A DNA stretch of 64,000 bases from positions 96,001-160,000 of the forward strand of contig JALNLM010000002.1 of assembly GCA_023254095.1 (NCBI GenBank), written 5' to 3'. The stretch is from Candidatus Geocrenenecus huangii (GTDB lineage: Archaea > Thermoproteota > Nitrososphaeria_A > Caldarchaeales > Wolframiiraptoraceae). Position 1 is the first letter of the stretch; the number at the start of each line of letters is the position of its first letter. The position numbers and the translations under genes are program-made. The notes under the pieces were generated by a model. The model was given only the letters and a program-made list of their open reading frames with translations. It did no database searches and was not told the origin of the DNA. Of this stretch, positions 931 to 10,059 are shown piece by piece.

Positions 931-1440
931 TTGTCTGAAAAGTCTCCAAGATACTTTGCAATCAAGGTAACGGTTGGACAGGAGAGGAATGTAGCGAAGA
1001 TAATTGAAAGCAAGATCGTTAGAGAAATCATAGAGGATGGGAAAACATTGAGAAGAGAAATAATCGAAGAAGGCATCTACTCTATTATAACTCTACCAAA
1101 TATTAAGGGATACATCTTCATCGAAGCTGAAAGTAAAGAAAAAGTCTCATTGATAACTCAAGGTATTAGACATGTAAAATCTAGACCTATACTGGTGGTC
1201 AAGAAGGATGAGATCATCCAGCACCTAGTAGAGAAACCTATAATCGAGATGATCTCTATCGGAGACATAGTTGAGATAGTTGCTGGACCCTTAAGAGGAA
1301 TATACGGCAAAGTAGTAAGAATAGATAAACCTAAAAATGAGCTTACGATAGAACCTACCGATGCTACATTCCCACTCCCAATCTCTATCTCAGCAGATCA
1401 GGTTAGGGTAGCCCAGCAACCAGCTAGGGAGAGTGGTTAA
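931..1440 (+). CDS. spt5: transcription elongation factor Spt5 (NusG family)
   Basis: NGN domain (VTVGQERNV, KGYIFIEA) and KOW domain (GDIVEIVAGPLRG). Confidence 0.95.
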   Translation: MSEKSPRYFAIKVTVGQERNVAKIIESKIVREIIEDGKTLRREIIEEGIYSIITLPNIKGYIFIEAESKEKVSLITQGIRHVKSRPILVVKKDEIIQHLVEKPIIEMISIGDIVEIVAGPLRGIYGKVVRIDKPKNELTIEPTDATFPLPISISADQVRVAQQPARESG

Positions 1441-1442
1441 GA

Positions 1443-1931
1443 ATGCCTGAGAAAACAATCCGATTCCTAGTACCAGGCGGTGAAGCTAATGCTGGTCCAC
1501 CAATAGGGCCAGCTCTAGGACCCCTAGGCGTAAACGTCTTACAGATTGTTGAAGAGATAAATAGAGTTACTTCAGAATTTAAAGGAATGAGGGTTCCAGT
1601 AGAAGTAACCGTAAATACCGATACTAAAGAATTCAAAGTCGTCGTTGGTACACCTACAACTACTGCCTTGATCGTGAAAGAAGCCGGCGTAGAGAAGGGT
1701 GCTAAAATGGCCGGTAGAGAAAATGTTGGTCAGGTCAGTTTAGACCAAGTTATAAAGATAGCTAAGATGAAGATGAATGATATGCGTGCTAAGACCTTGA
1801 AAGCAGCTGTAAAACAGGTTCTTGGAACATGTCTAAGCATGGGCATCATAGTAGACGGCAAAAACCCGAAAGAAGTAATAAGAGAGATAGATTCCGGAGC
1901 TCACGATAACAAACTAAAACAAGAAACTTGA
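1443..1931 (+). CDS. rpl11: 50S ribosomal protein uL11
   Basis: GGEANAGPPIGPALGPLGVN and GTCLSMGI motifs. Confidence 0.97.
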   Translation: MPEKTIRFLVPGGEANAGPPIGPALGPLGVNVLQIVEEINRVTSEFKGMRVPVEVTVNTDTKEFKVVVGTPTTTALIVKEAGVEKGAKMAGRENVGQVSLDQVIKIAKMKMNDMRAKTLKAAVKQVLGTCLSMGIIVDGKNPKEVIREIDSGAHDNKLKQET

Positions 1932-2140
1932 AACTCAAATAATGGAAAACCTTATCCAATCACAGATAACTAGACCGAGATAAATCCAGCTACCAAGGGA
2001 TAGATAAAGAGAGTCTAAGTCAATTTGATCTATTTATCTTCTATGTATTTGGAGCTCACTCGGAAAAAGTATCTCGGAATGTTTATATAAATGAGAAATT
2101 CTTAAATTAACCTGAATCCGTCAACTATCAGAGAAGAGCT

Positions 2141-2797
2141 ATGTTGAGAACGCTAGAAGCAAGCCTGGCTACAGCTATTGAACAAGCTAAGAATGATGGA
2201 GTATCTAGGAAATTTGAGCAGAGCATAGAATTGATAATAAACGTTAAGGGGATAGATTTGAAGAAGCCTGAGAATAGGTTCGTGGAAGATATAGAGCTTC
2301 CGAACGGTCTAGGAGATGGGAGGAAGATATGCGTTATAGCTGGAAGCGCTTTAGCTTCCGAAGCAAAGAAGCTCAAGGAAGTAAGTAGAGTAGTAGAGAG
2401 AAATGAGCTGGAATCTCTTGTTGGGAATAAGAGATTAGCGAAGAAGATTGCTTCAGAATATGATTACTTCCTAGTGGATCCTCCTCTAATGGGTTTAGCA
2501 GCGAAGGCTCTTGGAGCAGTTCTTGGAGGCAGGGGCAAAAGACCCGTCCCGATACCTCCCGGGTCAAACATAGCAGACCTAGTTAAGAAGTACTATAGAA
2601 CGGTAACGGTGAGTGTGAGGAAGAACCCTCAAGCCATGTGTAAAATAGGCTTAGAAAGTATGGATACGAAGGCTCTTGTAGAGAATGCCTTAACAATAGT
2701 TTCTAAGGTCTCGGATAAATTGGAGAAGCATTTCAAGAACGTAAACTCGATATATGTCAAGAAGACTATGGGTAAGCCTATCAAGGTAGAATTGTAA
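2141..2797 (+). CDS. rpl1: 50S ribosomal protein uL1
   Basis: RKFEQSIELIINVKGIDL and C-terminal YVKKTMGKP motifs. Confidence 0.96.
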   Translation: MLRTLEASLATAIEQAKNDGVSRKFEQSIELIINVKGIDLKKPENRFVEDIELPNGLGDGRKICVIAGSALASEAKKLKEVSRVVERNELESLVGNKRLAKKIASEYDYFLVDPPLMGLAAKALGAVLGGRGKRPVPIPPGSNIADLVKKYYRTVTVSVRKNPQAMCKIGLESMDTKALVENALTIVSKVSDKLEKHFKNVNSIYVKKTMGKPIKVEL

Positions 2798-2809
2798 AAG
2801 TCGTGTAGA

Positions 2810-3466
2810 TTGATTGGAGGAAAGTTTATCAACAGAGTAAGAATAGTTGTAAGCTGGAGCTTGAAGCATAAACTTGGTTTAAAGATCGCAAAGATCCTGA
2901 TAAGAAACAGCGATTGTAAAGTTGTAGAATTCTTGAAGAATAAGGCTATAGAAGCACAATTCAGAAAAGTCAGAATAAGCGAGAAGTCTTCTACCCATCT
3001 CCTAAAACTCTATGGAGAGATAAGGATTAGTAAACGCTTAGATATTCCAGGCTCCTACATGGTCTTGCCGAACAATTACCTATGGATAAGTACTGAAAGC
3101 TGTACATCCTGCAGAATCTTCTCTCGTCTACCAGTAATCGTCGAATCCATATAATATGTAAGATCTCTAGGCGTTATTACAACAATGATAATTCCAGGAA
3201 GGCTATTCTGTAAGCGGGTTTTAGAGGATTTGAAGGAGGCTGATCTAAGTGTAGAAACAATCTCAATCAGAGATTATGAAGATCATGAGTTGACGAAGAG
3301 GCAGAGGGAAGTTCTCTCAGCAGCTTTGAGGATAGGCTGCCTGGGGAGTAAAAGGAGTGCGAGATTAAAAGACCTAGCATTCTTGGTTGGAGTAGATTCT
3401 TCTACAGCCTCTAGGATTATTAGAAATGCTATAAAAAAGGTTGTGGAAAAGACTCTCGACGAGTAA
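2810..3466 (+). pseudogene. Bat/HTH_10-type (DmsR/NarO-like) transcriptional regulator interrupted by an in-frame TAA at 3152-3154
   Basis: ORFs 2810..3154 and 3185..3466 are in the same frame, separated by one TAA. The C-terminal LTKRQREVL...ARLKDLAFLVGVDSSTASRIIRNAIKK is a Bat-type HTH; the N-terminal part has CTSC and further Cys residues. Confidence 0.75.
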
Positions 3467-3481
3467 TTAATATAGAATAGG

Positions 3482-3495
3482 TGCAACATTTTGCA
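3482..3495. promoter_or_regulatory. candidate operator palindrome TGCAA-N4-TTGCA
   Basis: Perfect 5-bp inverted repeat in the short gap between the regulator and oxidase subunit II. Confidence 0.4.
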
Positions 3496-3531
3496 TCCCA
3501 CGATTATCTTTAATCAATTCAATATTAATTA

Positions 3532-4113
3532 TTGGATATGGCTCCACAAGTCTTCATAGAGATAGTTTATTTTGTTATGATATCCATTGTGATAGGCTTC
3601 ATAATAGCATTCTACATCATTACACGAAAAAGAGGGGGCGGAAGACCCAACCCGGCCAATGAAGGGCATGCAGAAAAGAAAGGCATGGAGAAAGGAGAAA
3701 AGCGATGGCTTATCTTCTTATTCATAATAGTTGTTGTCGGGAACATACTCATGTTATCTCCGATACTTCCATCTTCACAATATGCATTATGGCTTAAAGA
3801 AGAACCAAAAATAACTATTACGATAGAAGTAAGAAACTATGAATTCGTTTTCCCCGAGAAACCGATAACTATTCCAGCCGGAGTCCCGGTAGAGTTCATA
3901 GTAATATCTCAAGACCTGGTTTATGGTTTCGGAGTATTCAAGAAGGATGGACTCATGGTTTTCCAGATGCAGGTTGTACCTAATCCATATGTGAATCGGA
4001 TAGTATGGATATTCGATGAGCCCGGATACTATGACGTGAGGTCTACAGAATACAGTGGCCCGAAGCATCCCTACCTGTATTTCCCGGACGCGATTAGAGT
4101 AGTCGGGGGATGA
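3532..4113 (+). CDS. heme-copper oxidoreductase subunit II, cupredoxin fold lacking CuA ligands
   Basis: Two N-terminal TM helices plus a cupredoxin domain. SQDLVYGF replaces DVxH, and RSTEYSGPKHPYL replaces CxExCGxxHxxM. The ATG at 3538 may be the true start. Confidence 0.88.
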   Translation: MDMAPQVFIEIVYFVMISIVIGFIIAFYIITRKRGGGRPNPANEGHAEKKGMEKGEKRWLIFLFIIVVVGNILMLSPILPSSQYALWLKEEPKITITIEVRNYEFVFPEKPITIPAGVPVEFIVISQDLVYGFGVFKKDGLMVFQMQVVPNPYVNRIVWIFDEPGYYDVRSTEYSGPKHPYLYFPDAIRVVGG

Positions 4114-4119
4114 TGTTAG

Positions 4120-5688
4120 GTGGATGAAGAAGAGAGGAAGAGAATTTCAATCAGATTCGTGGTCGTTTCATTAGTCTTCTTGGCATTGGCTGGGATAGAA
4201 GGAATATTGATGAGGCTTAGGTTGATGAATACTCTTGTAGAGTTCTTTGATGAAAAGCATTTCTACTCCATGATGACCGCTCACCCATTTGTAGGAGTAT
4301 ATGGATGGGCTTACATGGCAGTGATGGGCGCATTCTACTTCCTCGTACCCTACATTCTCAAGAAAGATATCTATAGCAAGAAAGCTGCATACCTGAGCTT
4401 CTGGATGATGCTAACAGGCCTGATAGCAGTTTGGAGTACAACATTTCTTACACATTATGCTCCGCTCTACACATTGTACTGGCCCATACCAGTAGCATAC
4501 ACTATCATTGGATGGGACTTATACTCTATACTAGCGTTTGGAATAGGTGTCGGACTAATCCTAGGAGGAGTACTCGTATTCTTTGGAAACATGTTCGCAA
4601 CAATATTCCTTCCAGCTAGGCAGATGGATGGAGGACCAGCCAGCCCATGGTATATCATTAAAGAACTTCTCACAACAGCCTTCAACCTAGACAAGATTAA
4701 AGCAAAGATAACCGGTATACCTCAATATACTTCTAAAGCATTCAATTACCCTGTTTTCGTCGTCGCCGTATTTAGAGGATGCGTGGATACTACACTAAAT
4801 GCGTTCGTTATCGGTGGAGTAGGCATACTATTAGCGGCATTCGCGATAGGGAACCTTGCCCCCTCGATCTCTCTATCAACAAGCATGGTTGACCCCTTAG
4901 TATACAAGAACGTCTTCTGGTGGGGTTTAGACTTAATAGCGGATGGAAATGTGCTCATCTTTACTGCTGGCACATGGTATCTCCTAGTACCATTATTACT
5001 AAATAGGACATTATACGGTGAAAATGTTGTTAGAACAGTTATATTGGCAGATCTGGTCGTTTCTCTCTTCGTATGGAATCACCATATGCTTGCAGATACG
5101 CCTCAGCCAATCTTCTTACAGATACAGGAGCAGATATTTACTTGGGGAGAGCTTTTAACTATGGGTCTCACAATGTTCGCAGTACTTGCGACAATATGGT
5201 TCGCCAGACCTGTAAAGTACAACATGCCCCTGAAATTTGTTCTTGTATCGATTACTGGCTATGCGGTAGGAGGTCTAGCAGGTATAATACAAGCAAATTA
5301 TGCATCAAATAGGTTCTTCCACAATACTCAATGGGTGATAGGTATCCATGGGCACATACAACTACTCGTAGGATTATCCTCAACATTGTTTGCGGCGATC
5401 TATGCTCTCTTCCCACTGCTAACAGGTAAAAATCTCAGTGATAGACTAGGTAACATTCATCTGATACTGTGGAGTGTAGGTGGATTAGTGATGGGTTTGA
5501 GCATGGGGTTGGCGGGAACTCTAGGCATGTTGAGGAGAACTCTCTACCCGATGGGTTTGGGACTATATGAACCCTACATGGTGGTAGCCTCTCTTGGAGC
5601 ATTCATGATGGCTACAGGGTTCTTAGTATTCCTAGTAAATGTTCTGAAGACAGTAAAATTAAAAGATCTCTTAAAGATAATCTTCTAA
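4120..5688 (+). CDS. heme-copper oxidoreductase subunit I, gNOR-like (putative nitric oxide reductase)
   Basis: Polytopic membrane protein. Heme ligands retained (MMTAHP; HNTQWVIGIHGH), helix VII WNHH and GMLRR present. Helix VI reads FWWGLDLIADG instead of FWFFGHPEVY. Confidence 0.85.
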   Translation: MDEEERKRISIRFVVVSLVFLALAGIEGILMRLRLMNTLVEFFDEKHFYSMMTAHPFVGVYGWAYMAVMGAFYFLVPYILKKDIYSKKAAYLSFWMMLTGLIAVWSTTFLTHYAPLYTLYWPIPVAYTIIGWDLYSILAFGIGVGLILGGVLVFFGNMFATIFLPARQMDGGPASPWYIIKELLTTAFNLDKIKAKITGIPQYTSKAFNYPVFVVAVFRGCVDTTLNAFVIGGVGILLAAFAIGNLAPSISLSTSMVDPLVYKNVFWWGLDLIADGNVLIFTAGTWYLLVPLLLNRTLYGENVVRTVILADLVVSLFVWNHHMLADTPQPIFLQIQEQIFTWGELLTMGLTMFAVLATIWFARPVKYNMPLKFVLVSITGYAVGGLAGIIQANYASNRFFHNTQWVIGIHGHIQLLVGLSSTLFAAIYALFPLLTGKNLSDRLGNIHLILWSVGGLVMGLSMGLAGTLGMLRRTLYPMGLGLYEPYMVVASLGAFMMATGFLVFLVNVLKTVKLKDLLKIIF

Positions 5689-5879
5689 AACTTCATATAT
5701 GGACTCTTTTTCATTAATAACGTTACATGGGATAGCAGATTGTGACCTGTAGATATCTTAAGAGCAGAATCGAGAAAGGAATATAGAAGTCCTTCTCTCC
5801 AGCTGATTTTAGGTTTTTTAAGTAGATGAGGATATAGAGTTTGTGAGTTAGGAGAGTTTAGAGAGGCGTTCAGCTGGAC

Positions 5880-6746
5880 TTGTCCGGGCAGACTCTCGTC
5901 TCAAAAGTACAGAAATGGAAGGCTGAAGAAGTAGAAGAATTAGCGGAACTTATCAATAGGTATCCTGTAGTCGCCGTCTTTAATCTATCTGGTCTTAGAG
6001 CCAACCTGCTACATGAGATCAGGAAGAAGCTTAGAGGCTACTGTACGATAAGGGTTGCCAAGAAAACCTTATTCATTAAAGCTGCTGAGAAAACTGGTAA
6101 AAAAGATTTGGTCAAGCTTGTGGAAGATTTGAAATCGAGTGCTGGTTTTATCTTCTCAGATGTAAGCTTGTTTAAGCTAAAGTTACTCTTTGATAAAAAC
6201 AAGATTTTAATGCATGCTAAAGCAGGAGAGAAGGCAGACATAGATATAGTCGTACCTGAGATGAATACTGGTCTTCCACCTGGTCCAGTTCTAAGCGATT
6301 TCGGAAAATTAAAGATACCAACTAAGATAGAAGGCGGACAAATATGGATCGCTAAGGATACTGTGGTTGCTAAGAAGGGCGATGAGATCTCCCCTCTACT
6401 AGCTTCGCTGCTAGCTAGATTAAACATTAAAGCAGTGATGAAAGGTATAACAATCGATAAGGGTTATGAAGACGGAGTAGTAATCTCAGGGAAAGATCTT
6501 GAGATAGACTTGGAGAAGATGAAGAACGAGGTGATCGAGGCGAACAGCCTTGCTATTAAGCTAGCGATCGATATAGCGTATGTAACTAGAGAGACTATTC
6601 AGACTCTAATAATCAAAGCCCATAGAGAAGCTAGAATATTAGCGGTTGAAGTAGGTCTACCGATCAGAGAAGTAATAGGGGAGATCTTGTTAAGAGCTGA
6701 AGCTGTTGCTAGAAAACTGAAAGAGAAAGTAGATTCAAAGACGTAA
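5880..6746 (+). CDS. rpl10: 50S ribosomal protein uL10 (P0)
   Basis: WKAEEVEEL, RVAKKTLF and NTGLPPGPVLSDF motifs. Confidence 0.96.
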   Translation: MSGQTLVSKVQKWKAEEVEELAELINRYPVVAVFNLSGLRANLLHEIRKKLRGYCTIRVAKKTLFIKAAEKTGKKDLVKLVEDLKSSAGFIFSDVSLFKLKLLFDKNKILMHAKAGEKADIDIVVPEMNTGLPPGPVLSDFGKLKIPTKIEGGQIWIAKDTVVAKKGDEISPLLASLLARLNIKAVMKGITIDKGYEDGVVISGKDLEIDLEKMKNEVIEANSLAIKLAIDIAYVTRETIQTLIIKAHREARILAVEVGLPIREVIGEILLRAEAVARKLKEKVDSKT

Positions 6747-6755
6747 CCTAGGATT

Positions 6756-9548
6756 TCACGTAGGTTGTTCTCCGAGCATATGGGATAATATTTCACCGAC
6801 GACGAGCCTCAAGGCTTCTTCATCTACATCTCTATCTAATGTTCCCTGACCTATCCTGGGTTGCCCACCTGCCCTCCCACTCAACTTTAACGTAAGCTCT
6901 TCAGCCATCTTTCCAGCATGAACACCTTGGGATTGAGCTTCTTCATTAGATACTACGAGTAAATTTGGCCTCTCGAACCCGTAAACAAGTACAATACATT
7001 TCGGTCCGGCCTTCTCCATCAACTTGTCGGAAATCATGAAAGCATATTCTTTATCTCCGCCAACCTCTCTGGCCACGTATGCCTCCACGCCCCTAATCCT
7101 CAACGGTCTACTAGATAGTTCTCGGGCTCTATAATCCGCGATAATCTTTGATAACGAGTGAATCTTCTTCCTGAATTCTTTAACTTCCTCTAGCTGTTCT
7201 CTTACTTTCTCTAAGAGGTCTTGCGGAGAAGATTTAAGCGTCAAAGATGCTTCGTAAATTATTCTATCATTTTCCTGGAGATATGGTAGCGCGGATACGC
7301 CTGCTGAGAAGATGAACCTCTCAACACCCTCTTGTATCCTCTCTGTTCTCAGTATTTTGATTATTCCTACGTCCTCAGTATTTTCACAGTGTATCCCTCC
7401 ACATGCCTCTGCATCCCAGCCAGGTATCTCTACCACTCTTATTATAGCCGATGGAACTTCTCCTCCCTGATACAATGTAAATCCGTAAATCCTCTCAGCT
7501 TCATTCCTATCCATCCACTTGACGATGACTGGAAGCCGGCTTGCAACAACATCGTTAGCTAGATTCTCAATCTTATTCAAATCCTCTCTGGACAATCTCT
7601 TATGATGGTATACGTCGAGCCTAGCTTTATCAGGCTCCTTCTCCGCTCCCGCCTGCCATGCATGTTTTCCCAAGACTCTCCTAGCGGCCCCCAATACTAT
7701 GTGGGTAGCAGTATGATGCCTCATCAACCTAAGCCTTCTATCTCTGTCTAATTCTCCTATAACGTCTATCCCGACCGGTGGAGTACCGCCCTGTACTTTA
7801 TGTAAGATTACTCCACCGCCGAGGAGAACAGCTTCTTCAACTCTTGCTTCACTCTCCCCCCATCTTAGGAATCCCTTATCTGATGCTTGTCCCCCACTCG
7901 TTGGATAGAATAACGTCTGGTCTAAAATAACGTAATCGTCTACAACTCCTAAGACTCTTGCCTTAAAACTGAATTCCGTAGGTTTCTCATAGTATAGCTT
8001 CCTCGTAGCTGGATGATTCTTTACTTTTTCTTCAAGGATCTTTATCCAATCCTGCGTTGATGTTTCGACTGCTCTAAGATGCCTGGAAGCTACGAGTTCA
8101 TAAAAGTTCTCAGGGATACTAAGCTTCACATTAATTTTTTCAGCTATCTGTTTGACGAAGTCTGGCGTTAAACCCTTCTCATCATACATCCTTACCAAGA
8201 AGTCGGGAGGCACAGTGTCTGTCTTATTCTTTAATTGATTGAGCTCTTTCTCTACATAGGATGCTCCACGCTGAATTGTTTCTCTGAATTTTCTGATTTC
8301 TGACTCGACTATTTCGACTATCTCATCTCTCGCCTCAACTAGATGCGGGAAATCTCCACCCCAGTGATCTATTTGTAGGTCTACTAGTTCGATGAGTTTA
8401 TCTCCAGAATTAAGTAACTCTAACAATCTACAGGCTTTCCTAATGAGTAGTCTAGCTAGGTAGCCGACTTTAACATTTGATGGTACCACCCCCTCACCGA
8501 TTATGAAGGTTATAGATTTAGAGTAATCTAGGAGTGCGTAGACTCTTTCAAGGGGAACTATCTCTTTCTCAATTACTTCTAAAGGTATCCCTGACCTTTC
8601 TGATACTATTCTTCTAGCATCATGAATAGTCTGGCTGGCTTTCGGAACTACTAGAGCCGTGTACGGTGAGTATGCTTCTAGAAGCTTCCGGTCTGGTTTA
8701 GGTACTTCAAGTATCTTCTCCAACTTTGGATAAAGCCTACCATAGATTGCGTCGAAGCAACTCGGAGTTCCTTGGCTGAACCATGCAAATCTTTCTATTC
8801 CATAACCTGTATCCACAGTCCTGATCGGTAGCTCTACCAGCCAGCTATCTAGAGTCTTGTATTGCATGAATACTAGAGTGGCTAGTTCTAAGCCATAGGA
8901 GATAGTCTCGAAGCATGGGCCAGCGTTTCCTCCACCACTCCATATAGATTCCTTGTAGATTATTTCTTCTTCAGGTATTCCGAATTCTTCTCTAACGTAT
9001 TCATGGTAGTATCTTACAGTATCTTCTTTCCAGTAAACTTCCCTGTCAGGATAGTTGAAGGCATGTGCACCCCCCATCTCGAATATTGTTAAGTGTCTCC
9101 CAAATGTTAGCCCAACCTTATCTACGTCGACCAGTCTTATACATGGTTGGCTGATAACTAGAGGGTTTGCTGGGGGTGGAGCTATACCTGAAGTAACGAA
9201 TGGCTGGAAATCTACAATGCTTGCATCGGTCAAGAACATGTCTGTCCTCCATCTAGCTACGACAGGATAAGGCTTGATAACCTGATGACCTCTCCTCTCG
9301 AAAAATCTTAGGAACAATTCTCTTGATCCTTTAACATCTACCTGTTTTCTTGCCAGATTCTTGCCTACGAATTTATATTCTTCGCACGGCGACTCGCCGC
9401 ATATATCCCTATCAGGATTCACTGTCCAGAAGTATTCCCCACATATTCTACATTTTTTCCTAACATATCCTCTTTCTCTGAAAAATTCTAGGGAATACGT
9501 TTCTGGGCCGCGGAGTTTATCAAACGTGACCATTGATCCTTGCGACAA
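6756..9548 (-). CDS. alaS: alanine--tRNA ligase
   Basis: Archaeal N-terminal CxxC, YPVVARWR, VDTGYGIER, editing-domain HTATH and CGGIH motifs. Confidence 0.97.
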   Translation of the reverse strand: MSQGSMVTFDKLRGPETYSLEFFRERGYVRKKCRICGEYFWTVNPDRDICGESPCEEYKFVGKNLARKQVDVKGSRELFLRFFERRGHQVIKPYPVVARWRTDMFLTDASIVDFQPFVTSGIAPPPANPLVISQPCIRLVDVDKVGLTFGRHLTIFEMGGAHAFNYPDREVYWKEDTVRYYHEYVREEFGIPEEEIIYKESIWSGGGNAGPCFETISYGLELATLVFMQYKTLDSWLVELPIRTVDTGYGIERFAWFSQGTPSCFDAIYGRLYPKLEKILEVPKPDRKLLEAYSPYTALVVPKASQTIHDARRIVSERSGIPLEVIEKEIVPLERVYALLDYSKSITFIIGEGVVPSNVKVGYLARLLIRKACRLLELLNSGDKLIELVDLQIDHWGGDFPHLVEARDEIVEIVESEIRKFRETIQRGASYVEKELNQLKNKTDTVPPDFLVRMYDEKGLTPDFVKQIAEKINVKLSIPENFYELVASRHLRAVETSTQDWIKILEEKVKNHPATRKLYYEKPTEFSFKARVLGVVDDYVILDQTLFYPTSGGQASDKGFLRWGESEARVEEAVLLGGGVILHKVQGGTPPVGIDVIGELDRDRRLRLMRHHTATHIVLGAARRVLGKHAWQAGAEKEPDKARLDVYHHKRLSREDLNKIENLANDVVASRLPVIVKWMDRNEAERIYGFTLYQGGEVPSAIIRVVEIPGWDAEACGGIHCENTEDVGIIKILRTERIQEGVERFIFSAGVSALPYLQENDRIIYEASLTLKSSPQDLLEKVREQLEEVKEFRKKIHSLSKIIADYRARELSSRPLRIRGVEAYVAREVGGDKEYAFMISDKLMEKAGPKCIVLVYGFERPNLLVVSNEEAQSQGVHAGKMAEELTLKLSGRAGGQPRIGQGTLDRDVDEEALRLVVGEILSHMLGEQPT

Positions 9549-9747
9549 TTTATCTCTCCAGCAAGCAATCTAAGAAAAGACACTTTAAATACTTTAAATC
9601 AAGCATACTCTCTTTCGCCATTAATATTTTTATTCATATTTTGTTCCACGTCTCATGACCTCTACGGTTTTTCTTTTTATCCGGCTCGGTAAGACTAACT
9701 AATTTAGTTTAGTCGACCGTAATGCCTCCTAATCGGATCGAGTATGT

Positions 9748-10059
9748 TTAACCAAATAATGCGCTCAGTCCAGCTAATGCCTCTTCCTCTTCTTTCTTTT
9801 CTTCTTTCTTCTTCTCCTCAACGGGTTTAGCTTCAGTCGTAGTGGTAGGTGCAGGCGCTGTTGGAGCTACGGCAACAGGCATAGCCGTCGCAGACTTCAA
9901 CACCTCATCTATATTTACTTCAGAGATTGCGGCTACTAGTGATTTTACTCTTACCTCGTCAGGCGTTATCCCCGCAGCTACTAGGACTTTCCTTAGATTT
10001 TCTTCATTGATTTGTTTCCCAGCTTTATGAAGTAGAAGAGCAGCATAAACATACTCCAT
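9748..10059 (-). CDS. rpl12: 50S ribosomal stalk protein P1/L12
   Basis: [11 protein letters not shown] start, Ala/Pro hinge and [14 protein letters not shown] end. Confidence 0.97.

What the first reader, a model, noticed from the sequence alone, without database searches (positions are those of the whole stretch)
3532..5688. gNOR-like heme-copper oxidoreductase in an archaeon: His-to-Asp active-site helix and no CuA
Seen: subunit I keeps the three heme His ligands and the helix VII His-His pair, but helix VI reads FWWGLDLIADG. It has no His and no cross-linking Tyr where oxygen reductases have GHPEVY. Subunit II has Ser at both CuA Cys positions and Tyr at the CuA His position. Established: Asp replacing this His is the hallmark of the gNOR family of putative NO reductases, known mainly from sulfur-oxidising bacteria. 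Inference: this is not a cytochrome c oxidase but a probably quinol-fed NO reductase or NO-detoxifying enzyme, likely acquired horizontally, that automated annotation would miscall as cox1/cox2. No nitrite reductase or heme-synthase genes lie in the window.
Basis: partly seen in the sequence, partly recalled or inferred. Interest (0 to 1): 0.85.

Follow-up and report, generated by a model that had tools for sequence, protein, structure and literature searches.

The report
Archaeal gNOR-type nitric oxide reductase genes
These two genes of a hot-spring archaeon encode a relative of respiratory oxidases with two aspartates where a metal-binding histidine and the catalytic tyrosine normally sit; it belongs to the published but never purified gNOR family of presumed nitric-oxide reductases, so it is one more member of a known kind.

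Summary
Subunit I (4120-5688) is a heme-copper oxidoreductase. It keeps the three heme histidines and the helix VII His-His pair. It has Asp271 in the column of the helix VI metal-ligand His and Asp275 in the column of the cross-linked Tyr. Subunit II (3532-4113) has Tyr, Ser and Ser at three CuA ligand positions.

Both traits are fixed in a sharply separated family found in at least 445 species genomes. That family includes Sulfurimonas, Sulfurovum and Persephonella, where gNOR was first named. Published work already places gNOR in Bacteria and Archaea, and this scan has reported gNOR at least 14 times on other DNA. So this is a new member of a known kind.

NO reduction is inferred, because no gNOR has been purified. 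The genome has no other heme-copper enzyme and I found no nirK, nirS, nosZ, true narG, hcp or cytochrome c maturation gene. That favours quinol-fed removal of outside NO.

Recent horizontal acquisition is not supported. The gene sits in an order-specific clade with conserved synteny inside the L11-L1-L10 ribosomal cluster.

Side findings:
- An archaea-only cysteine-bearing HTH_10 regulator lies next to the genes and carries a strain-specific stop codon here.
- A conserved palindrome lies upstream of subunit II.
- A Thermofilaceae gNOR keeps its CuA ligands.

The parts
2861..3466 (+). HTH_10-family regulator gene with an unannotated N-terminal domain bearing conserved Cys19, His46, Cys81 and Cys84. 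In this assembly it is split by an in-frame TAA.
   Evidence: Pfam HTH_10 on the C-terminal piece. Relatives have one ORF of 201-207 aa. The intact 201-aa allele P0277 is identical apart from Tyr at the stop. Conserved residues come from 21 sequences.
3152..3154 (+). In-frame TAA stop inside the regulator gene, a strain-level polymorphism
   Evidence: Contigs of runs X9 and X10 carry the same letters. Run X13, a strain with 43 differences in 3101 bases, reads C at 3154, giving TAC (Tyr).
3481..3497 (.). Palindrome GTGCAACATTTTGCATC, a candidate operator about 45 bases upstream of the subunit II start
   Evidence: An ATGCAA-N4-TTGCAT-like inverted repeat is conserved in the window and in 5 of 5 closest loci that carry the regulator. 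Binding by the regulator is inferred.
3532..4113 (+). Subunit II: two N-terminal membrane helices and a cupredoxin domain without a CuA site (Tyr131, Ser171, Ser175, His179, Leu182). The true start is probably the ATG at 3538.
   Evidence: Family-wide, Y is found in 73 of 75, S in 73 of 75 and S in 72 of 75. The start is inferred from relatives.
4120..5688 (+). Subunit I, the catalytic heme-copper-superfamily subunit of gNOR type
   Evidence: PF00115 at 210.6 bits. The AlphaFold2 model has pLDDT 85.5 and pTM 0.89, with Z 37-41 to solved subunit I chains. It falls in the family clade with SH-aLRT 100.
4282..4284 (+). His55, helix II, axial ligand of the low-spin heme (role by homology)
   Evidence: Invariant
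4915..4947 (+). Helix VI motif FWWGLDLIADG. Asp271 is in the metal-ligand His column and Asp275 in the cross-link Tyr column.
   Evidence: Invariant in 57 sequences.
5080..5085 (+). His321-His322, the helix VII pair of non-heme metal ligands
5347..5355 (+). His410-Gly-His412, helix X: proximal ligand of the high-spin heme and second ligand of the low-spin heme (roles by homology)

Best explanation
The two genes encode a gNOR (norGH-type) member of the heme-copper oxidoreductase superfamily.

Shown:
- Subunit I keeps the ligands of a low-spin heme (His55, His412) and a high-spin heme (His410).
- It keeps two of the three usual ligands of the neighbouring non-heme metal (His321, His322).
- The third ligand and the cross-linked Tyr are both Asp (271 and 275).
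- Subunit II is a cupredoxin without CuA.

Inferred:
- The two-His, one-or-two-carboxylate site binds iron rather than copper.
- Without the Tyr the enzyme cannot carry out four-electron O2 reduction, and it reduces 2 NO to N2O.
- Electrons come from membrane quinol, because CuA is absent and no cytochrome c maturation genes were found.
- This strict-anaerobe lineage has no NO-forming nitrite reductase, so the enzyme most likely removes or respires NO made by neighbouring microbes or by chemical nitrite reduction in the spring.
- In archaea the module is probably switched by the adjacent cysteine-bearing HTH_10 regulator acting at the upstream palindrome.
For: Active-site and heme ligand columns: (37 of 37 family rows; 33 of 34 others have His at the Asp271 column). 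These positions are invariant in 57 homologs.

CuA loss.

Family identity:
- An exhaustive search gives two full-length representatives at 497 and 381 bits, both with the D-x3-D motif. The next full-length protein scores 115 bits.
- All 37 D-x3-D rows form one clade with SH-aLRT 100 and a stem of 0.9. The clade includes Sulfurimonas, Sulfurovum, Nitratiruptor and Persephonella rows.
- A published table lists gNOR, with residue D, in Sulfurimonas, Sulfurovum and Persephonella (PMC8756737 appendix table, passage read).
- Murali et al. 2024 define gNOR by Asp in place of an active-site His and by a cupredoxin subunit lacking the CuA residues, possibly quinol-oxidising (PMC11214002, passages read).

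Selection: subunit I is 85.6% identical to the L011 ortholog. In the same pair L11 is 83.6%, L1 83.5%, L10 78.0% and AlaRS 76.8%.

Genome content (96.4% complete):
- Only one full heme-copper enzyme.
- No nirK, nirS, nosZ, true narG, hcp or PF01578 was found.
- Cytochrome bd is present and could handle O2.

Context in bacteria: among 102 nearest neighbours of gNOR genes there are hemerythrin domains (4), Crp/Fnr-type regulators (3) and Rrf2 (2).

Expression hint: contigs of an RNA library cover 3601-4140 and 5332-5537.
Against: - No gNOR has been purified or assayed. The 2024 paper lists it among 'proposed' NORs, so the NO chemistry is inference.
- This genome and all 35 genomes of its family lack a NirK-like gene. 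Only 4 of 17 gNOR-bearing genomes of the order have one. There is thus no internal NO source here.
- In the 102 bacterial neighbours no nitrite or nitrous-oxide reductase family reached the 25 most frequent families.
- The metal could not be determined, and I had no coordinates to measure whether Asp275 is a ligand.
- Heme O synthase is not diagnostic. It is in 18 of 35 family genomes, while a heme-copper enzyme is in only 9.
- The RNA contigs may stem from carried-over DNA.
- My tree used the quick LG+G4 search. The other families were labelled only by motif, and the link to the B family was not resolved (supports 86 and 66).
Confidence: 0.7

Rival explanations
1. It is a true gNOR-family protein, but the physiological substrate is not NO. 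The 2-His/2-Asp heme site might scavenge traces of O2 or peroxide, or reduce another small oxidant met by sulfite-respiring anaerobes.
For: - No biochemical data exist for any gNOR.
- No NO-forming enzyme was found in this genome or its family.
- No denitrification enzyme recurs next to the genes in 102 bacterial neighbours.
- The family is said to be enriched in sulfidic settings.
- The same genome has a DsrC/DsrMK module according to an earlier scan note, which I did not test.
Against: - The cross-link Tyr needed for four-electron O2 reduction is absent in 37 of 37 family rows.
- A cytochrome bd oxidase is already present for O2.
- Heme-copper enzymes whose Tyr is replaced by a polar residue and that have been tested are NO reductases (eNOR and bNOR).
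- A synthetic mimic of the gNOR site reduced NO, according to the 2024 paper.
- NO-linked regulator types (Rrf2, Crp/Fnr) and hemerythrins recur beside bacterial members.
Confidence: 0.2
2. The module was recently acquired by horizontal transfer from sulfur-oxidising bacteria.
For: - Distribution in the order is patchy: 17 of 76 genomes and 5 of 15 genera.
- The regulator-subunit II-subunit I module sits in a different context in Ca. Geocrenenecus dongiae (L013) and in the Calditenuaceae loci.
- Proteins labelled by their sources as Terriglobales and Methylomirabilota nest beside a Bathyarchaeia row. Transfer between domains has therefore occurred in the family.
Against: - The nearest rows are all Caldarchaeales (6 rows, support 99).
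- The Campylobacterota/Aquificota rows lie in a separate 14-row clade and are only 42-44% identical.
- Synteny within the ribosomal cluster is shared by 4 of 5 closest loci at 75-86% identity.
- G+C is 0.42 against 0.38-0.43 across the window.
Confidence: 0.05
3. It is a decaying or inactive relic of an oxygen reductase, or a canonical B-family oxidase that was mis-aligned.
For: Pairwise HMMER alignments to A-family structures place Leu or Asp ambiguously under the His. The adjacent regulator carries a stop codon in this strain.
Against: - There are 77 invariant columns across 57 homologs, including every heme ligand and the D-x3-D motif.
- Subunit I is as conserved as the ribosomal proteins beside it.
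- No stop or frameshift occurs in either structural gene.
- There is no His or Tyr anywhere in the helix VI motif.
Confidence: 0.03

Closest known systems
gNOR (norGH) family of the heme-copper oxidoreductase superfamily. Sources seen: Murali et al. 2024, PMC11214002, passages read. Hemp & Gennis 2008 and Sievert et al. 2008 are cited from other papers' text only and were not read.
   Same: Asp in place of the helix VI active-site His, Asp at the Tyr position, a retained His-His pair and heme ligands, and a cupredoxin subunit without CuA. It clusters with sequences from Sulfurimonas, Sulfurovum and Persephonella.
   Different: There is no difference in the defining features. Specific to this case:
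- It is the only heme-copper enzyme of a strictly anaerobic archaeal lineage without nitrite reductase.
- It lies inside the L11-L1-L10 ribosomal gene cluster.
- It is paired with an HTH_10 regulator rather than the Rrf2 or Crp/Fnr types seen beside bacterial members.
B-family oxygen reductases (Thermus thermophilus ba3, PDB 1EHK)
   Same: A two-subunit core. Subunit II is most similar to ba3 subunit II. The HNT and H-x-H helix X motifs are alike.
   Different: ba3 has His and a cross-linked Tyr on helix VI and a complete CuA site. Here these are Asp, Asp and Tyr/Ser/Ser. My tree did not resolve a specific sister relation.
cNOR and qNOR (for example Roseobacter cNOR, PDB 4XYD)
   Same: The same fold (Z 37.0, rmsd 3.1, 421 aligned). 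The presumed chemistry is also the same: a heme next to non-heme iron with a carboxylate nearby.
   Different: [quoted passage not shown] Here one His is replaced, and the partner subunit is a cupredoxin and not a cytochrome c.
sNOR and bNOR (His plus Asn at the Tyr position)
   Same: The helix VI context is nearly identical to that of a His...Asn representative (WWGLH...N against WWGLD...D).
   Different: Those families keep the His. Representative P0153 joins the family stem only with weak support and on a long branch.
NarO of Haloferax volcanii, a regulator of denitrification genes. Its regulatory role is from passages of PMC10062603. Its cysteine motif and HTH type are recalled only, because the original paper is not held.
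   Same: An archaeal regulator tied to genes of nitrogen-oxide respiration. By recall it has N-terminal cysteines and a C-terminal HTH.
   Different: No sequence comparison was made. The regulator here has a Cys-His-Cys-x2-Cys pattern on a tandem beta-alpha-beta-beta N-domain with no clear solved relative.

Membership tests
gNOR | Subunit I belongs to the heme-copper oxidoreductase superfamily | tested here: met
   PF00115 at 210.6 bits over the full profile. The model matches solved subunit I chains at Z 37-41.
gNOR | One of the three active-site His ligands is replaced by Asp | tested here: met
   Asp271 column: D in 37 of 37 family rows, H in 33 of 34 other heme-copper rows. The definition is from PMC11214002.
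gNOR | No cross-linked Tyr; Asp at that position | tested here: met
   Asp275 column: D in 37 of 37 family rows; in the others Y 25, N 7, Q 1, L 1. The table in PMC8756737 lists 'D' for gNOR.
gNOR | Cupredoxin subunit II lacking the CuA-binding residues | tested here: met
   Tyr131, Ser171 and Ser175 align to His, Cys and Cys of ba3 subunit II. The same holds in 72-73 of 75 family loci.
gNOR | Groups with recognised gNOR sequences in a phylogeny or under the authors' curated family models | tested here: met
   One clade of 37 rows (SH-aLRT 100) holds rows from Sulfurimonas, Sulfurovum, Nitratiruptor and Persephonella. Caveat: these rows were picked by genus name and motif. The curated models and the named Methylomirabilis genes DAMO_1118-1119 were not available to me.
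gNOR | Conserved quinol-binding residues | not tested
   The paper that names them is not held. Glu27 is invariant and Arg32 nearly invariant. They align with an Asp and an Arg on helix I of aa3-600 quinol oxidase. That this Asp binds quinol is recalled only.
gNOR | NO reductase activity | not testable with these tools
   It has never been shown for any member; the family is 'proposed' in PMC11214002.
B-family oxygen reductase | Helix VI His ligand with a cross-linked Tyr four residues on, and a CuA site in subunit II | tested here: not met
cNOR / qNOR / nNOR | Three His ligands plus a Glu at the non-heme iron site | tested here: not met
   The helix VI His is absent.
sNOR / bNOR | Helix VI His kept, with Asn at the Tyr position | tested here: not met
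   Asp and Asp occupy these positions.

The most novel reading that the evidence does not exclude
In strictly anaerobic, sulfite-respiring hot-spring archaea that have no way of making NO, the heme plus 2-His/2-Asp metal site carries out chemistry other than NO reduction. It would act on a different small oxidant, under control of a new cysteine-based HTH_10 sensor. gNOR would then be a misnamed family with a new heme-copper activity.
Probability: 0.12. Interest if true: 0.75.

Novelty: new member of a known kind. Interest (0 to 1): 0.3.

Why it matters
The family is already described, so the gene itself adds little. This lineage is nevertheless a clean place to ask what gNOR does.
- The enzyme is the only heme-copper protein in the genome, and the only one in each of the 7 of 8 genus genomes that carry one.
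- No nitrite reductase confounds the picture.
- The host is thermophilic, which often helps purification.
- Natural strains differ by a stop codon in the adjacent regulator.

Public annotation as 'cbb3-type cytochrome c oxidase' would wrongly suggest aerobic respiration in a family described as strict anaerobes. That matters for metabolic reconstructions of hot-spring archaea and for N2O budgets.

The archaea-only cysteine-bearing HTH_10 regulator and its palindrome give a testable candidate for an archaeal NO or redox sensor.

Tried and rejected
- Pairwise HMMER alignments to solved A-family chains gave shifting registers on helix VI, so I did not use them to assign Asp271. Thermus ba3 subunit I matched but was never among the printed alignments.
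- Fold search of the subunit I model did not separate the families. A-type oxidases, bo3, cbb3 and cNOR all score Z 37-41. ba3 was not among the 50 rows shown, which says nothing.
- I had no model coordinates, so the binuclear site could not be measured.
- I tried heme O synthase as a marker of the heme type. It failed because one genus has it in 7 of 7 genomes with no heme-copper enzyme.
- CtaA was not found. The control also missed Sulfolobus, so absence is weak.
- The weak COX1 match on contig 26 (23 bits) lies in a 176-aa membrane ORF and was set aside.
- The tally of bacterial neighbours showed no recurring denitrification enzyme. I gave it only the nearest upstream and downstream ORF of the 58 bacterial loci: 102 of the 103 listed, with one long ORF of L049 left out. 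The 110 archaeal neighbours were listed but not scanned.
- Fold search of the regulator model gave only weak matches. The best plausible one was Thermoplasma Ta1207, with TM 0.47 over 161 columns.
- Literature searches found no main-text statement of gNOR in Caldarchaeales. PMC12979851 credits an author with 'nitric oxide reductase screening', but no result is in its main text.
- Supplements of that paper and of PMC11214002, which list genomes by family, are closed and may already name these genomes.
- The paper on quinol sites and the NarO paper are not held.
- RNA run X15 left 2700-3600, 4141-5331 and 5538-5800 uncovered. Contigs cannot show absence.
- No complex prediction was run, because subunit I with subunit II is a textbook pair.
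Full report
**What is there.** The window holds two adjacent same-strand ORFs, 3532-4113 (193 aa) and 4120-5688 (522 aa). The larger one matches Pfam COX1 over the whole profile at 210.6 bits. Every NCBIfam oxidase equivalog scores far below its cut-off; for example CtaD scores 133.5 bits against a cut-off of 670.75. The smaller one matches no Pfam family. It matches CoxB and CyoA models weakly and aligns best to the CuA domain of Thermus ba3 subunit II.

**The active site.** Pairwise alignments to A-family structures disagree on the helix VI register. I therefore aligned 71 subunit I sequences: 37 of this family and 34 other heme-copper proteins drawn from an exhaustive search.
- Asp271 column: Asp in all 37 family rows. 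Of the 34 others, 33 have His and 1 has Arg.
- Asp275 column, four residues on: Asp in all 37 family rows. In the others Tyr 25, Asn 7, Gln 1, Leu 1.
- A representative reading WWGLH...N gives the same gapless register as WWGLD...D.
- His55, His321, His322, His410, His412 and the Arg472-Arg473 pair are kept in 37 of 37.
- All of these positions and the D-x3-D motif are invariant in 57 homologs down to 41% identity.

The roles of these residues (heme ligands, non-heme metal ligands, propionate partners) follow from established knowledge of the superfamily and were not measured here.

**Subunit II.** Against ba3 subunit II, Tyr131 lies under the first His, Ser171 and Ser175 lie under the two Cys, His179 lies under the second His, and Leu182 lies under the Met. 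I compared the upstream ORFs of 75 of 80 related loci; the other five have none in reach, and one of the 75, L055, is a mis-called ORF. The first His position is Tyr in 73, and the two Cys positions are Ser in 73 and 72. The loop RSTEYSGP is itself strongly conserved, so it is under constraint without copper.

**Which family.**
- The exhaustive representative search returns two full-length proteins at 497 and 381 bits, both with the D-x3-D motif. The next full-length protein scores 115 bits.
Of these, 445 are relatives, and the best 80 were kept.
- Those 80 range from Caldarchaeales (86% identity to Ca. Geocrenenecus dongiae) through Bathyarchaeia, Geothermarchaeota, Thermofilaceae, Methanomethylicia and many Chloroflexota. 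At 42-44% identity they reach Sulfurimonas, Sulfurovum, Nitratiruptor and Persephonella.
- In a quick maximum-likelihood tree (LG+G4, SH-aLRT only) the 37 D-x3-D rows form one clade with support 100 and a stem of 0.9.
- A published table lists gNOR, with residue D, in Sulfurimonas, Sulfurovum and Persephonella (PMC8756737, passage).
- Murali et al. 2024 define gNOR by Asp for an active-site His and a cupredoxin subunit without CuA residues. They suggest quinol as donor and state that gNOR occurs in Bacteria and Archaea, in 156 GTDB genomes (PMC11214002, passages).

All sequence-level defining features are met. The relation to the B family was not resolved in my tree. The other rows were labelled by motif only.

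**Origin.**
- The window's protein sits in a clade of six Caldarchaeales rows (support 99). That clade lies inside a 13-row subclade (support 100) whose 11 titled rows are all archaeal. Its other two rows are proteins whose sources label them Terriglobales and Methylomirabilota.
- In the window's order the gene is in 17 of 76 genomes and 5 of 15 genera. It is in 6 of 7 other genomes of the genus.
- The order Spt5-L11-L1-regulator-subunit II-subunit I-L10-AlaRS-L12 is shared with L011 and L012, and as far as the contigs reach with L014 and L036. In L013 (Ca. Geocrenenecus dongiae) the three-gene module lies elsewhere. The Calditenuaceae loci lack the regulator.
- G+C content is unremarkable.

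The module has moved within the order, and transfer between domains has occurred in the family. Nothing points to a recent gain from sulfur-oxidising bacteria.

**Function.** NO reduction has not been shown for any gNOR. The arguments for it are:
- The Tyr needed for O2 reduction is absent.
- The site carries carboxylates, as in iron-containing NORs.
- Relatives with a replaced Tyr that have been tested are NO reductases.
- NO-linked gene types occur beside bacterial members: hemerythrin domains 4, Crp/Fnr 3 and Rrf2 2 among 102 nearest neighbours.

The genome is 1.61 Mb in 32 contigs and 96.4% complete.
- It has one full heme-copper enzyme.
- It has a cytochrome bd.
- No nirK, nirS, nosZ, true narG, hcp or cytochrome c maturation gene was found.
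- NirK-like genes are in 20 of 76 genomes of the order but in none of the 35 of the window's family. They coincide with gNOR in only 4 of 17 genomes.

I therefore read the enzyme as a quinol-fed sink for outside NO. I keep a 0.2 rival that the substrate is something else.

Purifying selection is evident. Subunit I is 85.6% identical to its L011 ortholog, against 77-84% for the flanking ribosomal proteins and AlaRS.

The stretch occurs in hot-spring metagenomes of several studies. Contigs from one RNA library cover parts of both genes. This is only a hint of expression.

**The regulator.**
- Upstream lies an HTH_10 gene (2861-3466) that relatives encode as one ORF of 201-207 aa.
- Here it carries a TAA at 3152-3154.
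- Contigs of two runs, which may be one data set, show the same letters. A strain with 43 differences in 3101 bases reads TAC. The intact allele is on record.
- Twenty-one homologs conserve Cys19, His46, Cys81 and Cys84.
- The model (pLDDT 86.5) shows two beta-alpha-beta-beta units ahead of the HTH and has no clear solved relative.
- A profile of nine such regulators finds one beside the gNOR genes in 12 of 22 archaeal loci and 0 of 58 bacterial loci. Eight of the twelve were in the profile.
- A palindrome of the ATGCAA-N4-TTGCAT type lies upstream of subunit II in the window and in 5 of 5 closest loci.
- Sensing of NO or redox state by this protein is my inference.

**Verdict.** This scan has met gNOR at least 14 times on other DNA. 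It is a new member of a known kind, of modest interest. Its useful side features are the regulator, its natural nonsense allele, and a CuA-bearing relative.

Noticed in passing
window 2861-3466 (stop at 3152-3154): The HTH_10 regulator next to the gNOR genes is cut by an in-frame TAA in this assembly and in contigs of two runs. A strain about 98.6% identical reads TAC (Tyr), and an intact 201-aa allele is on record. The stop codon is therefore a natural strain difference between a broken and an intact regulator gene.
   Followed up: yes
window 2861-3466; L011:4741-5346, L020:7578-8198, L021:7619-8218, L022:711-1343, L034:7508-8194, L064:979-1599 and others: This regulator family has an N-domain with conserved Cys19, His46, Cys81 and Cys84. 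Pfam matches only its HTH_10 end. It lies beside gNOR genes in 12 of 22 archaeal loci and in 0 of 58 bacterial loci. It may be an archaeal counterpart of the Rrf2 and Fnr-type control seen in bacteria.
   Followed up: partly
window 3481-3497: A palindrome of the ATGCAA-N4-TTGCAT type upstream of subunit II is conserved in the window and the five closest loci with the regulator. It is a candidate operator.
   Followed up: partly
L022:1713-2288 (Thermofilaceae MAG): One gNOR-type locus has a subunit II with the full set of CuA ligand residues (His, Cys, Cys, His, Met aligned to ba3), while its subunit I has the D-x3-D site. It is the only one of 75. It may be a copper-fed gNOR variant or an evolutionary intermediate.
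   Followed up: partly
window 931-10059: The three-gene gNOR module is inserted between the L1 and L10 genes of the conserved Spt5-L11-L1-L10 ribosomal cluster. This placement is shared by four related species-level loci.
   Followed up: yes
window 3532-3540: The listed TTG start of subunit II is probably two codons too early. Relatives begin at the ATG that corresponds to 3538 (MAP...).
   Followed up: partly
genomes G055-G061 (one genus of the window's family): All seven genomes carry a heme O synthase gene above the curated cut-off but no heme-copper enzyme. The role of heme O, or of this prenyltransferase, there is unexplained.
   Followed up: no
proteins P0158 and P0190 (representatives): Two heme-copper homologs show other odd helix VI and VII patterns. 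P0158 has Arg at the His column and Gln at the Tyr column, and reads H-W-Q-H on helix VII. I did not look into them.
   Followed up: no
G000 contig 13, 150073-152606: Two adjacent CydA-like genes (219 and 50 bits) suggest a cytochrome bd-type oxidase in this anaerobe.
   Followed up: no
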